From NCBI GenBank assembly GCA_964016885.1, contig OZ024749.1:54622001-54686000 (forward strand): 64,000 nt of DNA. Direction: 5' to 3'. Both the position numbers and the translations under genes were made by a program. The notes beneath the pieces are model-generated. The model was not told the DNA's origin, made no database searches, and saw only the letters and a list, made by a program, of their open reading frames with translations. Below are positions 740-37,730 of this stretch, in pieces; positions within the stretch are counted from its first letter, which is position 1; each line of letters starts with the position of its first letter. This DNA is from Eledone cirrhosa. Lineage: Eukaryota.

Positions 740-783
740 TTTCCTTTACCGGTTTCACAGTTGTTATGCTTTTCAAAAGTAAA
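740..783 (-). ncRNA. Minimal type I hammerhead-like motif (mirror copy in left palindrome arm)
   Basis: Reverse complement reads tttactt TTGAAAA gcataacaactgt GAAA ccgg TA aaggaaa. Confidence 0.7.
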
Positions 784-866
784 AAGTAAAGTTGAGATGG
801 AGAGTTTGTGGTTTTTCTCGGATCAGATGCGAGAAAAACCACAAACTCTCCATCTCAACTTTACTT

Positions 867-910
867 TTTACTTTTGAAAAGCATAACAACTGTGAAACCG
901 GTAAAGGAAG
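867..910 (+). ncRNA. Minimal type I hammerhead ribozyme-like motif, U3-A8 core variant
   Basis: tttactt | TTGAAAA | gca-taacaac-tgt | GAAA | ccgg | TA | aaggaag: stem I 6 of 7 bp, 3-bp stem II, palindromic CCGG loop III as in Penelope-associated minimal hammerheads. Confidence 0.7.
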
Positions 911-1254
911 CAAGTAAATATTCTTAAAAAGACTCCAGTTGCATTTTCTATTTCATCTTTTTTCCTCACACACACACACACACACACACACACACACACA
1001 CACACACACACACACACACACACACACACACATAAAGGATATATATATATATATAAGTGCATTATTATGCCAAATACTCTCCCTCTCTCTCCCTCTCTCT
1101 TGTGCTTTAGATACTTTCACTATTCTATATCTAAGATGTACTTATTTCGCAAGAAAATACAATTTTCACGGTTCACAGTTGGTTTAGCCTCCAAATGCAG
1201 CCGCCATCTCTCTTTTTTTTTTTTTTTGCAGCTGCTGCAATAATAACTACATTA

Positions 1255-2650
1255 CTACCATTATCATCGACATCGTCATCGTCATCGTCATCGTCATCAG
1301 TATCATTATCCTCACCATCATCATCATTATCATCACCATCATCATCATTATCATCACCATCATCACCACCACTATCGTCATTGTCTTCATCATCATCACC
1401 ATCATCATCTTCATCATCACCATCGTCATCAGTATCATTATCATCACCATCATCATCACCATCATCACCATCATCATCGCCTTCATCACCATCATCATCA
1501 GTATCATTATCAACATCATCATCGTCATCACCATCATATGCATTCATCAACACTGCTTCCAACTTGCACCAACGAATTCACCACTTCCACCATCATTTAC
1601 TACTACTACTACTACTACTACTACTACTACTGCTGCTGCTACCACCACCACTACTACTACTACTGCTACCACCACCACCACCACCACTACTACTACTACT
1701 ACTGCCACCACCACCACTACTACTACTACTACTACTACTGATACCACCACCACCACCACCACCACCACCACCACCACCACCACCACCACTACTACTACTA
1801 CTGCCACCACCACTACTACTACCACTACTACTACTACTACTACTACTACTACTACTACTACTACTACTGCTACCACCACCACCACCACCACTACTACTAC
1901 TACTGCCACCACCACCACCACTACTACTACTACTACTGACACCACCACCACCACCACCACCACCACCACTACTACTGCTACCACCACCACCACCACCACC
2001 ACCACTACTACTACTACTAGCAATTGTAGGTTTTCAGTTTTTTTTACATCGATATTCTTTTGAAGTTCATAACTATTGAAGTAGCGAATGACAACAGCAG
2101 CAACAACAACAGCAGCAGCAGCAACAACAACAGCAGCAGCAACAACAGCCGCAACAACAACAGCCGCAGCAACAACAGCAACAGCAACAACAACAACAGC
2201 AGCAGCAACAACAGCAGCAGCAACAACAGCAACAACAACAGCAGTAACACAGCAGCAGCAGCAACAACAGCAGCAGCAACAACAACAACAACAGCAGCAA
2301 CAGCAACAGCAACAACAGCAGCAACAGCAGCAACAGCAGCAACAACAACAGCAGCAGCAGCAGCAACAACAGCAGCAGCAACAACAACAACAGCAGCAGC
2401 AGCAACAACAACAACAACAGCAGCAACAACAACAGCAGCAGCAGCAACAACAGCAGCAACAAGAACAAGAACAGCAACGATGATGATGATGATAACAATA
2501 GTAATAATAATGAGGAAGAAACAGGTGAAGAAAAGGAAGAAGAAGATTATAAAGGAAAAGAGGGAGAATAGTTTGAAGATGATGAAAAAGAAGAAGAATA
2601 AGAAGAAAATGAAGGAGAAAAAGGAGAAAGAGATAATAATAATAATAATA
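1255..2650. repeat. Compound trinucleotide microsatellite block (ATC, ACT/ACC, AAC/AGC, GAA)
   Basis: Directly visible; produces homopolymeric ORFs in several frames. Confidence 0.95.
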
Positions 2651-3670
2651 GTAGGAAGGAATGTTGTTATTATCTACCTAAGGGATCTCAATTCCTCCTA
2701 GGGGACTCTGCAGTTTCAGCCTTTGACAAATTATCATATCTCTTTTTTTTCTTTCTTTTTTTTTTTGTAGTATATTTCTTCTCATCATCTTTGCTGGTTT
2801 CTAGGGAAACCTAATGATACGTTTAGTATTCACCCCTTCTCCCCTCCTTCTCTTTCTCTCCCCCACCTCCCTCTTTCTCTCCTCCCACCTCCCTCTTTCT
2901 CTCCCCCCCTTCTTCCTCTTTCTCTCCTCCCACCTCCCTCTTTCTCTCCTCCCCTTCTTCCTCTTCTCCCCTTCTTCCTCTTCTCTCTCTACTCCTCTCC
3001 CCTTCTCTTCTCTTCATCTCATCTACTTCACAACGTATCTCTTGGGAATCGTGGCCTGATGCTGTGAGTTTTTTCAGTGCTTTCGACGATAACGCCAGGT
3101 TATATAGGCTTATCTCACCTTGTTTTTAACTTGAGGTTACCTGTTCCTGATTAATCAATGACTTGACTTGCTGCTTTTTAAATATAAAAGGTTTAGTAAG
3201 AGTTCACAGTTATCCTGCTGCCTTTTCTTTCTTTTAGAATTCTTAAATCAAGGTATTCTGTACATTTGGTATTGTTTCTTCTTCTTTTTCTTCTTTTTCT
3301 TCTTTTTCTTCTTTTTCTTCTTCTTCTTCTTTCTTTTTTTTTGTGTGCTAGTTCTAAAGTTCTAATTACAAGTTATTTATAATTTACGAAATTATAGTTC
3401 TCCAAGGTCTGGGTCTGAGATGTCAATATATTTTCTTTCGCTTCACCGCTTTACCTCTACCTCACCTCTCAATTCTATTGGGATTTAAAGAATGAGAATT
3501 AAGAATATTCGCTTCCAAATCCAAAGCATGTTTGTCATTGTGAAAATACTTTGTATTGTAATGGGTTCTGGTTGAGGCACAAGGCCAACAATTTTTGGGG
3601 AAAATGGGAAAGTCGATTAAATCTACCCCAGTGCATTACTGGTACTTTAATTCTAAAACAATTTTAACTA

Positions 3671-35189: not shown

Positions 35190-35866
35190 CCATATATATA
35201 CATATATATATATACATATATATATATACATATATATAATAAATATATATATGTATATATATATATATATATATATACATACATATACATATATATATAT
35301 ATATATATATATATACATACATATATATATATATATATATATATATACATATATATATATATATATATATATATATATATATATATATATATATATATAT
35401 ACATATATATATATATATATATATATATATATATATATATACATATATATATATATATATATATATATATATACATATATATATATATATATACATATAT
35501 ATATACATATATATATATATATATATACATATATATATACATATATATATATATATATATATATATACATATATATATATATATATACATATATATATAT
35601 ATATATATACATATATATATATATATATATACATATATATATATATATATATACATATATATATACATATATATATATATATATACATATATATATACAT
35701 ATATATATATATACACACACACATATATATATATATGCACACACACGCATATATATATATATATATACACACACATATATATATATACATATATATAAAT
35801 ATATATATATATATATATATATATATATATATATATATATATATATATATATATATATATATATAC
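35190..35866. repeat. Long (TA)n with CA interruptions
   Basis: Directly visible. Confidence 0.97.
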
Positions 35867-36860
35867 ATGTATAATATGCATTACAATTATGCACACTCAT
35901 ACACTTACACTTGTGTGTATACATGGCAGCAATATATACACAAAATAGAAATATATACATTTTATCTGTGATAATCTTATATATATATATATATATATAT
36001 AGCTATTATTTTATATGCATTTGCATACGTGTGTAATATGAATACACACACACACACACACACACACACACACACACACACATAGACACATATACTGTAC
36101 GTATGTAATGATCTTCACATACATACTTACGTACATACATATATACATATACACACAACCGTAACCATTCATATTTTTACATGTTGACTACACGATCTTC
36201 TATTTGGACTTTTATAGCCTTCTTTTTTTAAAGATGATATGGTGAGATTTGATGGTGATTAGGCTGCTATTTCTAACAAATTAATGCTGAAACGATGTAG
36301 ACACATTCCTTTTAGTTGGTACGTTTTTCATATATATATATATATATATATATATATATATATATATATATATATATATATATATATGTGAGTGTGTGTG
36401 TGTTTGTGTGCGTATGTGTGTGTGTGTGTGTGTTGAAGAGAAACAGATCTTGCCTCGAAAAAGATGGAGGATTAACAGTGCTGAAAATAACAGCCAATAT
36501 TTCAAGAAACGGTACAGAAATATTCCTAAAGGTGACAGTTTTATAGGACTTTGGGTTAGAAATCCTTATTATAAGGTTCAGTTATTCGTGTGTAGTCATA
36601 TGTGCTTTACTTTGGCCATGGCCTGGAGGAGACTCATTTCTCTATGATTCTATCCAGCTATCTGTAAGTTAGTATGACATCATAAAATACTGTCACTTCT
36701 ATAAAGGGTAGTATGCATCGCTGTCACAATTGATGAGTGTTTTATTGGTTAGTATAGCTTGCAGTTCTACATTTTCCTGTCTTAAGAACAATCGTCTTCA
36801 AGAAGCTAATTTGCTTGGAGAGACATTACATGAATAGGTTTTCACTGTTACGTGAAAAGG

Positions 36861-36934
36861 TATAAGACAGAGGTTTCAGCAGTATGGTTACAGATGTATT
36901 TATACAAATTACACTGGTTCTTCATCAGTTAGTA
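36861..36934 (-). ncRNA. Type I hammerhead-like motif, intact core, GUC cleavage triplet
   Basis: Minus strand: tactaa | CTGATGA | ag-aac-cagtgt...atactg-ct | GAAA c-ctct-g TC | ttata. Stem I is short (3 bp plus 2 across a bulge). Confidence 0.55.
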
Positions 36935-37351
36935 AAAACTAGAAAATATACTGAATTTCAGAATTTGGAAATATCATCATCATCGTCGTCATTATCATCA
37001 TCATCGTTTAATATGTCTTGTCTGATAATTCTGTGAGTACACAAGTGAAACTGCAGTCTTGCGTTCAATCGGGGGGTAACCACTGTTATTAAGGTACTCA
37101 ATACATTAGCAAAGTATAAAGAAGAATTTTAATATAGAAATGGCTTCTAGAGGATGAATGAAACAGTTCTAATCCGGTAGAAACAATTTACACACACACA
37201 CACACACACACACACACACACACACACACACACACACACACACACACACACACACACACACACACACACACACACACACACACACACACACACACATTAG
37301 AACATGAGGTTTTTTTTTACAAAATGAAAAAAAAATACGGGACGTCCTACA

Positions 37352-37730
37352 CGAAAAAAGATGAAGTCGAAAATGCAACTGGAATCTTTTTAAGAATATT
37401 TATTTGGTTCCTTTACCGGCTTCACATTTCTTGTGCTTTTTAAAAGTAGAATTGAGATGGAAGATTTTTGGTTTTATAGTATGAATTTTCTGTAGATATT
37501 CATAGTTGTCTCAGTGGCCTAGTGGTAGGTACTAGAGACGGTGGAGGTCCTGGTCTTGGGTTCAATCCTGGTCAAGAAGTACCTTTAATCTTTGTCAGTT
37601 TTTATTTTAAATCCTCATAGAAAAAAACTGAAAAGGTTTACCGGGATCGAACTTCAGACCAGGATCGAACTTCAGACCATGATCACCACCGTCTATGATC
37701 TCTCCAACTAGGACACCGAGAGAGCTACAA
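37352..37730. mobile_element. Composite element: palindrome-arm homolog with decayed hammerhead (37408-37449, minus strand) plus convergent tRNA-like pair
   Basis: 37352-37475 aligns with 684-815; tRNA-like A/B boxes at 37503-37574 (+) and 37639-37728 (-). Confidence 0.6.

What the first reader, a model, noticed from the sequence alone, without database searches (positions are those of the whole stretch)
740..37449. Eight hammerhead-like motifs hidden in microsatellite-embedded islands: a candidate self-cleaving retroelement system
Seen: motifs ordered stem I-YUGANRA-stem II-GAAA-short helix III-NUH-stem I' at 740-783(-), 867-910(+), 16126-16213(+), 22717-22758(+), 23142-23266(+), 32554-32615(-), 36861-36934(-) and decayed 37408-37449(-). 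Each lies in a short non-coding island in or near (TA)n/(CA)n, and two are followed closely by AATAAA. Established: minimal type I hammerheads mark Penelope-like element pLTRs and non-LTR retrozymes, and Penelope elements favour AT-rich targets. Inference: several unrelated non-autonomous ribozyme-bearing families colonise microsatellites here, at about one per 5 kb over this span. I cannot tell whether they are already catalogued.
Basis: partly seen in the sequence, partly recalled or inferred. Interest (0 to 1): 0.85.

Follow-up and report, generated by a model that had tools for sequence, protein, structure and literature searches.

The report
Penelope retroelement ends carrying minimal hammerheads
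Seven of the eight motifs are worn copies of hammerhead-shaped RNA motifs from repeated jumping-gene families (two tied to Penelope-like proteins), likely left when reverse transcriptase ran off the capped start of an uncut transcript, and the same window holds a family with about 20,000 exact motif matches whose hammerhead core carries a change predicted to weaken cutting.

Summary
The eight motifs are at the stated coordinates and exceed shuffled controls. Seven belong to five repeat families (A-E). Motifs 1 and 2 are two arms of one fold-back. Motif 7 is single-copy and compatible with chance. Families A and C lie 0.6-1.1 kb behind Penelope-like element (PLE) endonuclease reading frames on the same strand. 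No retrozyme-type tandem arrays were found. So 'non-autonomous families' is wrong for A and C and open for B, D and E. Minimal hammerheads, the U3-A8 core, palindromic helix III and (TA)n targeting are published PLE features, and this scan noted the same pattern in another genome. Most window copies are damaged. Two points go further. (1) Copies sampled by downstream sequence alone start at one point upstream of the hammerhead, never exactly at the cut site. They often carry an extra G, with a TATA-like box about 30 nt upstream. This suggests run-off from a capped, uncut transcript. Cleavage and expression were not tested.

The parts
686..824 (-). Family A short copy, inverted arm of a fold-back; holds motif 1 (U3-A8 core, ACCGGT helix III, GUA cut triplet; core to cut site 747-776)
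825..964 (+). Family A short copy, direct arm; holds motif 2 (874-903); starts at the family's main 5' start point (-72, allowing for a private 7-bp duplication) and ends at the +63 end in (CA)n
5107..5645 (-).
16110..16254 (+). Family C short copy (motif 3, 16126-16213): Hydra-clade PLE end with a 57-nt extended helix II; this copy has C at U16.1, where 48 of 55 family copies have U
22692..22819 (+). Family D short copy (motif 4): sister of A, U3-A8 core, ACCGGT helix III, weak helix II
23142..23294 (+). Family B short copy (motif 5): C3-G8 core, family insertion of about 102 nt in helix II, family palindrome ACGATCGT broken here by one change; end coordinate read from the alignment
32446..32615 (-). 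Family E old copy (motif 6): core kept, helix II and palindrome decayed; 9 copies found
36861..36934 (-). Motif 7: single-copy hammerhead-like string; chance or an unrecognisable relic
37353..37475 (-). Family A old copy (motif 8): G5 and A15.1 changed, predicted dead
39148..39239 (-). Family F 3' tip without the hammerhead
54847..55222 (.). Older family F inverted pair; A4-core motif on + from 55064

Best explanation
The islands are short end-pieces of repeated element families, two of them (A, C) directly behind Penelope-like endonuclease reading frames, and most were likely made when the element's reverse transcriptase started 28-126 bases downstream of the hammerhead and ran off the capped start of an uncut transcript. 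Step by step. (1) Shown: in A, C and F the hammerhead sits in the pseudo-LTR next to the RT/GIY-YIG frame, on the same strand. (2) Inferred: a TATA-like box and an initiator-like start lie 0-30 nt upstream of helix I, so the hammerhead is the first fold of the mRNA. (3) Taken from PAc biochemistry (PMC11167929) and inferred here: the protein nicks AT-rich DNA and starts cDNA inside the RNA at one of two fixed sites, which gives the two 3' ends seen. (4) Inferred: priming on the 5' pseudo-LTR gives 100-200-bp run-off copies with a fixed 5' end, often a cap-derived G, and often a fold-back second arm; priming on the 3' pseudo-LTR of a read-through transcript gives the variably truncated long copies. 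(5) Shown: inserted copies carry the whole hammerhead and none begins exactly at the cut site; inferred: the template was uncut. (6) Inferred: in source elements the ribozyme is slow and needs a dimer or protein, and cutting would remove the cap or trim tandem transcripts; most window copies are inert relics.
For: Linkage. A: endonuclease match ending about 0.85-1.25 kb upstream on the same strand in 9 of 20 long copies, RT only in one more; Pfam GIY-YIG 7e-06 on L226; RVT_1 1.9e-08 on a relative about 56% identical. C: 11 of 23 ORF-bearing loci; the endonuclease has CxCX5C, CxxC and CxH, and its longest homologues inspected (3 of 150 read) carry RT motifs. F: 713-aa open frames, pseudo-LTRs 98.5-99.8% alike in 7 of 7 units. 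Selection on the ribozyme: position 7 is the most variable column of family B (1 of 177) and varies in C and E; helix III is palindromic in A-E; pair 10.1-11.1 in A is G-U (41) or G-C (24) of 66. Two 3' ends in A, at +63 and +126. 5' ends sampled by downstream sequence only: A 39 of 71 within -75 to -57, 2 in the 19 nt above; F 21 of 68 within -50 to -32, 0 in the 19 nt above; exactly at the cut site 0 of 71 and 0 of 68. Base before F's start A: G 1,780 vs A+C 1,449 genome-wide. Of 30 G cases, the script explained 6 by the inverted arm and 1 as a long copy; by eye 1 more is arm-derived and 1-2 could be microsatellite, leaving about 20. TATA-like box 28-32 nt upstream in 14 of 20 A, 11 of 19 B, 14 of 19 C and 7 of 19 D long loci. 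Inverted partner copies in all four families.
Against: No RNA data, so start site, cap and cleavage are all inferred. The 5' pile-up coincides with structure (helix I base in F, a small hairpin in A), so a reverse transcriptase stall explains it too. The window edges and TATA patterns were chosen after seeing the data, and the samples include both arms of fold-backs and segmental duplicates. An extra G can come from untemplated addition. F has no clear TATA box. Twelve copies of another young family (G) showed no single sharp start. No reading frame was reached for B, D or E, and no RT was reached for C in 6 extended loci. Pfam found nothing on A's own RT piece or on C's endonuclease. Position 7 is not variable in A or D, and B's long helix II folds no better than shuffles (median z -0.8). 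Five of 71 A copies start within 4 nt of the cut site (three are duplicates of one event).
Confidence: 0.62

Rival explanations
1. Same PLE origin, but the short copies are ordinary 5'-truncated 3' ends: reverse transcriptase copies the 3' pseudo-LTR and stalls or folds back at the structured hammerhead region, and no transcript start is involved.
For: F's main 5' end is the first base of helix I. About 1,000 pattern matches with a canonical core turned out, in 10 of 10 inspected, to be fold-back junctions centred on core position 4. A has a small hairpin at its start point (read from the sequence). 5' truncation and inverted copies are standard for PLEs (PMC8557442).
Against: The sharp upstream edge, the unexplained G before the start A and the TATA-like spacing in four families are not predicted by a stall.
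Confidence: 0.25
2. Some families (B, D, E) are non-autonomous hammerhead-bearing elements that borrow PLE proteins.
For: No linked reading frame found for B, D or E. B's upstream homology fades at about 500-800 bp, at microsatellite-like sequence. Putatively non-autonomous Chlamys PLEs are described (PMC8557442).
Against: D shares its upstream repeats and hammerhead type with ORF-linked A and with a third ORF-linked relative (L224). B and E are old (window copy of B has median 76% identity), so long copies are rare and broken by later insertions. A and C looked the same until walked upstream.
Confidence: 0.1
3. Non-LTR retrozymes: tandem 150-450-bp hammerhead repeats that spread through circular RNA.
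For: Type I hammerheads in short AT-rich repeats; retrozymes occur in molluscs (PMC7229834).
Against: No same-strand pair 150-450 bp apart in 175 loci; the 5 same-strand pairs are 540-1641 bp apart. A, C and F are tied to reading frames.
Confidence: 0.02
4. The motifs are chance matches of a loose pattern in AT-rich DNA.
For: A loose descriptor gives 3.6 hits per shuffled window; six of seven folded motifs show no folding signal. This probably holds for motif 7.
Against: Seven motifs belong to families that keep core, helix I and palindromic helix III; stricter descriptors exceed all 60 shuffles.
Confidence: 0.01

Closest known systems
Minimal hammerheads of metazoan Penelope-like elements (Cervera & De la Pena 2014, PMC4209133; parts 1-2 of 4 read)
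   Same: Type I, short palindromic helix III, U3-A8 core variant (there in Schistosoma Cercyon), mostly solitary truncated copies, opposite-strand pairs 100-700 bp apart.
   Different: Helix II carries 57-nt (C) and about 102-nt (B) insertions, against 7-8 bp there. Family F has A at position 4. The paper, in the parts read, does not place the hammerhead at the transcript start or discuss run-off copies.
Hydra clade of C-terminal EN+ PLEs (Craig et al. 2021, PMC8557442; section 11, passages and supplement look-ups read), including Hydra-1_Obim
   Same: CxCX5C linker, no CCHH, CxxC and CxH around E and N, DKT motif, (TA)n ends, hammerhead with an extra base on each side of helix II (F), 3' position.
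   Different: All 25 tabulated hammerhead rows I saw have a CUGA core; F has CAGA. Four short strings from families A/D, B, C and E were not found in the supplement text (line breaks could hide a match). Here F and G have many intact frames.
Neptune/Nematis-type PLEs (CX2-5CxxC linker plus CCHH; definitions from PMC8557442)
   Same: [quoted passage not shown]
   Different: Clade not fixed: no tree was built. The 3' UTR is about 1 kb with internal repeats.
PAc Poseidon element of Anolis (Frangieh et al. 2024, PMC11167929; passages read)
   Same: Internal RT start at two sites giving a tail; uncut RNA is the main template; hammerhead not needed for insertion in vitro.
   Different: There the frame starts inside the hammerhead and the tail is 30-40 nt; here it is about 63 nt (A). 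In the passages searched, capped run-off copies are not discussed.
Non-LTR retrozymes (Cervera & De la Pena 2020, PMC7229834; passages read)
   Same: Type I hammerheads in short low-GC animal repeats.
   Different: No tandem arrays, and coding partners are present.

Membership tests
PLE minimal hammerhead | Core CUGANGA or UUGANAA plus GAAA and NUH kept in the family | tested here: met
   A, B, C, D column counts, E alignment. In the window the core is intact in motifs 1, 2, 4, 5, 6 and damaged in 3 and 8.
PLE minimal hammerhead | Short palindromic helix III able to form a dimer | tested here: met
   Self-duplex -3.4 to -10.0 kcal/mol for family-type A-E strings; not for motif 7. Family F has a 4-bp helix III with a 9-nt loop instead.
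PLE minimal hammerhead | Self-cleavage as dimer or with protein | not testable with these tools
   Needs in vitro assay.
EN+ Penelope-like element | Same-strand RT plus C-terminal GIY-YIG frame upstream of the hammerhead (families A, F) | tested here: met
EN+ Penelope-like element | Same for family C | tested here: inconclusive
   Endonuclease linked in 11 of 23 loci; RT not reached in 6 extended loci; homologues are full-length RT+EN proteins.
EN+ Penelope-like element | Same for families B, D, E | tested here: inconclusive
   Upstream walks for B and D stopped in untranslated sequence; E was not walked.
EN+ Penelope-like element | Pseudo-LTRs, inverted 5'-truncated copies and an optional tail | tested here: met
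   Direct pseudo-LTRs in F; inverted partners in A-D; two 3' ends in A.
Hydra clade | CxCX5C linker, no CCHH, CxxC and CxH motifs (families C, F) | tested here: met
   Read from translations against section 11 of PMC8557442.
Hydra clade | Placement in the RT tree | not tested
   No reference RT set was available to the script machine.
Neptune or Nematis clade | CX2-5CxxC linker plus CCHH (family A) | tested here: met
   L225 and L226 translations; the motif does not separate the two clades.
Non-LTR retrozyme | Head-to-tail repeats of 150-450 bp | tested here: not met
   0 such pairs in 175 loci.
Non-LTR retrozyme | No coding capacity | tested here: not met
   A, C and F are linked to reading frames; open for B, D, E.
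Non-LTR retrozyme | Abundant circular RNA | not testable with these tools
   No RNA holder listed.

The most novel reading that the evidence does not exclude
In these Penelope-like elements the hammerhead is the first fold of the capped mRNA and works as a brake: cutting removes the cap and the template for copying. Thousands of short genomic copies record run-off from the cap of uncut RNA. Family F weakened its brake by a U4-to-A core change and reached tens of thousands of copies, about 14 times more exact motif matches than a similarly young family with a normal core (19,763 vs 1,376; a single comparison). Alternatively the A4 core still cuts and is a natural variant that CUGANGA searches miss.
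Probability: 0.25. Interest if true: 0.72.

Novelty: new variant of a known kind. Interest (0 to 1): 0.45.

Why it matters
The eight motifs as listed are ordinary PLE debris. The value lies in the open question that Craig et al. state plainly: the role of the hammerhead in endonuclease-bearing PLEs is unclear. This genome offers a natural experiment: two young Hydra-type families with intact proteins, one with a normal core (G) and one with A at position 4 (F). It also offers a genomic read-out of the template's 5' end. If run-off from a capped start is right, it explains why solitary hammerheads are so common in animal genomes, shows that insertions in the animal come from uncut RNA, and lets PLE promoters be mapped from DNA alone. 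If the A4 core cuts, hammerhead catalogues built on CUGANGA undercount.

Tried and rejected
Rfam scan: no hammerhead in the 150 of 335 rows shown. ORF list and translated searches of the window: no PLE frame inside the window. Penelope frames near B copies L035 and L044 looked like a link, but L035's frame points away and has its own U3-A8 hammerhead about 1 kb downstream, and L044's is cut off by a TA run; rejected. The repeat upstream of motif 6 is another family. Word-index homologue search with C's endonuclease found nothing among longer proteins; the Atlas gave unnamed clusters and one with GIY-YIG on 31% of members; Pfam named no RT in 7 long homologues. Sequencing runs: no RNA holder listed. 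Laying three contig sets on the fold-back gave no piece spanning it, so an assembly artefact is neither shown nor excluded. The idea of a canonical-core subfamily of F was rejected: 10 of 10 inspected matches are fold-back junctions, and the 213 non-A matches with normal flanks are split among G, T and C in the 100 listed, like neutral mutation. Family G start points, 12 copies: inconclusive. Not done: covariance models, R-scape, trees. Lunse et al. 2017 (PLE hammerhead dimers) was not held; it may already list A4 or long-helix-II variants, and I know it only from a review passage (PMC6765202). Searches behind 'not found in print'; all are word searches of an open-access library and therefore weak. 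I did not open the supplements of PMC4209133, PMC11167929, PMC3088659 or PMC9901934, which may bear on known core variants.
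Full report
Setting. The window lies in a 3.0-Gb animal genome. About 40% is tandem repeat, and no protein gene was evident from the ORF list. The repeat landscape recalls octopod genomes; that is my recollection, not a call result, and nothing below depends on it.

Observation. 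All eight strings are present. Against 60 locally shuffled windows, descriptors that demand a paired core and real helices give 4 vs 0.47 and 3 vs 0.03 hits, with no shuffle reaching the observed number. Rfam showed no hammerhead in the 150 of 335 rows displayed. Only motif 3 folds into a hammerhead by itself. So the single-window signal is real but modest, and the test has to come from families.

Families. Motifs 1, 2 and 8 are family A (2,023 first-look candidates), motif 5 is B (378), motif 3 is C (1,303), motif 4 is D (625) and motif 6 is E (9 matches). Motif 7 is single-copy by two DNA searches and one pattern search. A and D have the U3-A8 core; B, C and E have C3-G8. All five keep a palindromic helix III. 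In B, position 7, the one free core position, is the most variable of 177 columns; it also varies in C and E, but not in A or D. C has a 57-nt helix II region that folds better than shuffles in 16 of 32 copies; B's 102-nt region does so in only 2 of 20. The window copies are mostly damaged. Motif 3 lost U16.1, motif 8 lost G5 and A15.1, motif 6 lost helix II, and motif 5 has a broken palindrome. Motifs 1 and 2 are intact but are predicted to pair with each other in a 279-nt hairpin if read through.

Link to Penelope-like elements (PLEs). Walking upstream in A reached a GIY-YIG endonuclease frame ending about 1 kb before the hammerhead, on the same strand, in 9 of 20 long copies. L225, L226 and L228 also hold the RT part. 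Pfam calls GIY-YIG on L226 and RVT_1 on a related RT, though not on A's own frameshifted RT piece. The linker is CX4CxxC, as in Neptune or Nematis elements. For C, 11 of 23 loci with the upstream frame have the hammerhead 570-1065 bp downstream. That frame has the Hydra-clade marks of Craig et al., and three long homologues read are RT+EN proteins, but no RT was reached in C itself. Walks for B and D stopped in untranslated sequence. No family forms retrozyme-type arrays: 0 same-strand pairs at 150-450 bp in 175 loci, while opposite-strand pairs are common.

What is known. Cervera & De la Pena 2014 (PMC4209133, parts 1-2 of 4 read) describe minimal PLE hammerheads, the U3-A8 core, palindromic helix III, solitary truncated copies, opposite-strand pairs and low activity. 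Craig et al. 2021 (PMC8557442; passages, section 11, supplement look-ups) describe inverted 5'-truncated copies, tails, (TA)n targeting and Hydra-1_Obim with its hammerhead, and say the function of the hammerhead is unclear. Frangieh et al. 2024 (PMC11167929, passages) show internal RT starts and uncut RNA as the main template in vitro. Schostak et al. 2008 (PMC2377424, passages) place the Penelope promoter in the pseudo-LTR. A repeat annotation of Octopus vulgaris lists 31 recently active Penelope-like families and does not mention ribozymes (PMC13282606, passages).

How the islands arise. I sampled copies using only sequence downstream of the cut site: the first matches on one contig, 70 of 100 listed places fetched per family. 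In A, 39 of 71 5' ends fall in -75 to -57, with 2 in the 19 nt above; the -75 class is a -72 start plus a tiny fold-back. In F, 21 of 68 fall in -50 to -32, with none in the 19 nt above. No copy starts exactly at the cut site; 5 A and 2 F copies start within 4 nt of it. The window's arm at 825 starts at the A point. The base before F's start A is G in 1,780 matches against 1,449 for A and C together. About 20 of 30 inspected G cases are explained by neither the inverted arm nor the flank. An extra G is the known trace of reverse transcription through a cap (recalled, not from a call). Long copies of A, B, C and D carry a TATA-like box 28-32 nt above the start motif. A ends at +63 or +126. I infer that the transcript starts just before the hammerhead, that RT primes shortly after it, and that run-off gives the short islands from uncut RNA. 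Against this: the edges and patterns were chosen after the fact; arms and duplicates inflate the counts; the start points coincide with RNA structure; F lacks a clear TATA box; 12 copies of family G showed no single start; and there is no RNA run.

A protein search found many intact 713-714-aa Hydra-type frames in two young families, F and G. F has ends in the window at 5107-5645, 39148-39239 and 54847-55222. Its unit is about 3.26 kb, with pseudo-LTRs about 99% alike. Its only hammerhead-shaped motif matches the Hydra layout (5-bp helix I, 3-bp helix II with an extra base on each side, 4-bp helix III) except that core position 4 is A. A 29-letter pattern with A4 has 19,763 exact matches and the same pattern with another base has 213. 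G, with a normal core, has 1,376. Perreault et al. 2011 (PMC3088659, passages) mention a natural U4C variant with reduced activity. Roberts et al. 2023 (PMC9901934, passages) report low activity for single mutants in the CUGA turn. I found no natural U4A core, but Lunse et al. 2017 was not available. F is therefore either a highly successful PLE with a weakened ribozyme or a functional variant; one pair of families cannot show cause.

Verdict. Observation partly confirmed; interpretation partly supported. The listed motifs are new members of a known kind, mostly relics. The A4 core, the long helix II insertions and the run-off evidence lift the case to a new variant of a known kind and make the hammerhead's role directly testable. 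Confidence that the islands are PLE ends is about 0.9 for A, C and F and about 0.75 for B, D and E; confidence in the capped run-off step is about 0.6. Interest 0.45.

Noticed in passing
window 5107-5645 (-), 54847-55222, 39148-39239 (-); L279-L306: Family F, a young Hydra-clade PLE with intact 713-aa frames, an A4 hammerhead core and 29,755 exact matches of a 25-letter 3' pattern.
   Followed up: yes
L312-L321: Of 1,037 pattern matches, 10 of 10 inspected are fold-back junctions of family F centred exactly on core position 4, which recreate a canonical-looking core by inversion.
   Followed up: partly
window 686-964: The two arms are 98% alike over 319 bp but only about 89% like the reference copy. 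The other 24 fold-backs measured gave 71-95% between arms (alignments include gaps and flanks). Recent local duplication, gene conversion or assembly artefact.
   Followed up: partly
L277, L278, L283, L285, L288 (about 450-550 bp after the frame): Family G has a second, degenerate hammerhead-like copy in its 3' UTR with G at the cut position, besides the canonical one in the pseudo-LTR.
   Followed up: no
L224:1030-1080; L233 about 650 bp into the printed stretch: Two further PLE families with hammerheads downstream of GIY-YIG frames: another U3-A8 type and a classic minimal type.
   Followed up: no
family C loci L062-L090: Most C copies end in (TC)n, often followed by (TA)n, and B copies often end in (AC)n, suggesting element-borne or slippage-made repeats rather than target choice.
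   Followed up: no
window 16320-16420 (-), 19904-20012 (-), 22540-22580 (+), 28921-29192: Further partial or weak hammerhead-like strings in short islands; family status not checked.
   Followed up: no
window 42108-46160: About 136 copies of a 30-bp minisatellite at 95-98% identity, open in three frames for about 1,400 codons.
   Followed up: no
window 9530-9943, 17876-18088, 38100-38280, 46188-46381, 52164-52371, 59628-59782: An abundant SINE-like repeat of about 200 bp, including an inverted pair at 9530-9943; it also inserts into the PLE UTRs.
   Followed up: no
window 10460-11126: Array of 22 copies of a 30-bp unit.
   Followed up: no
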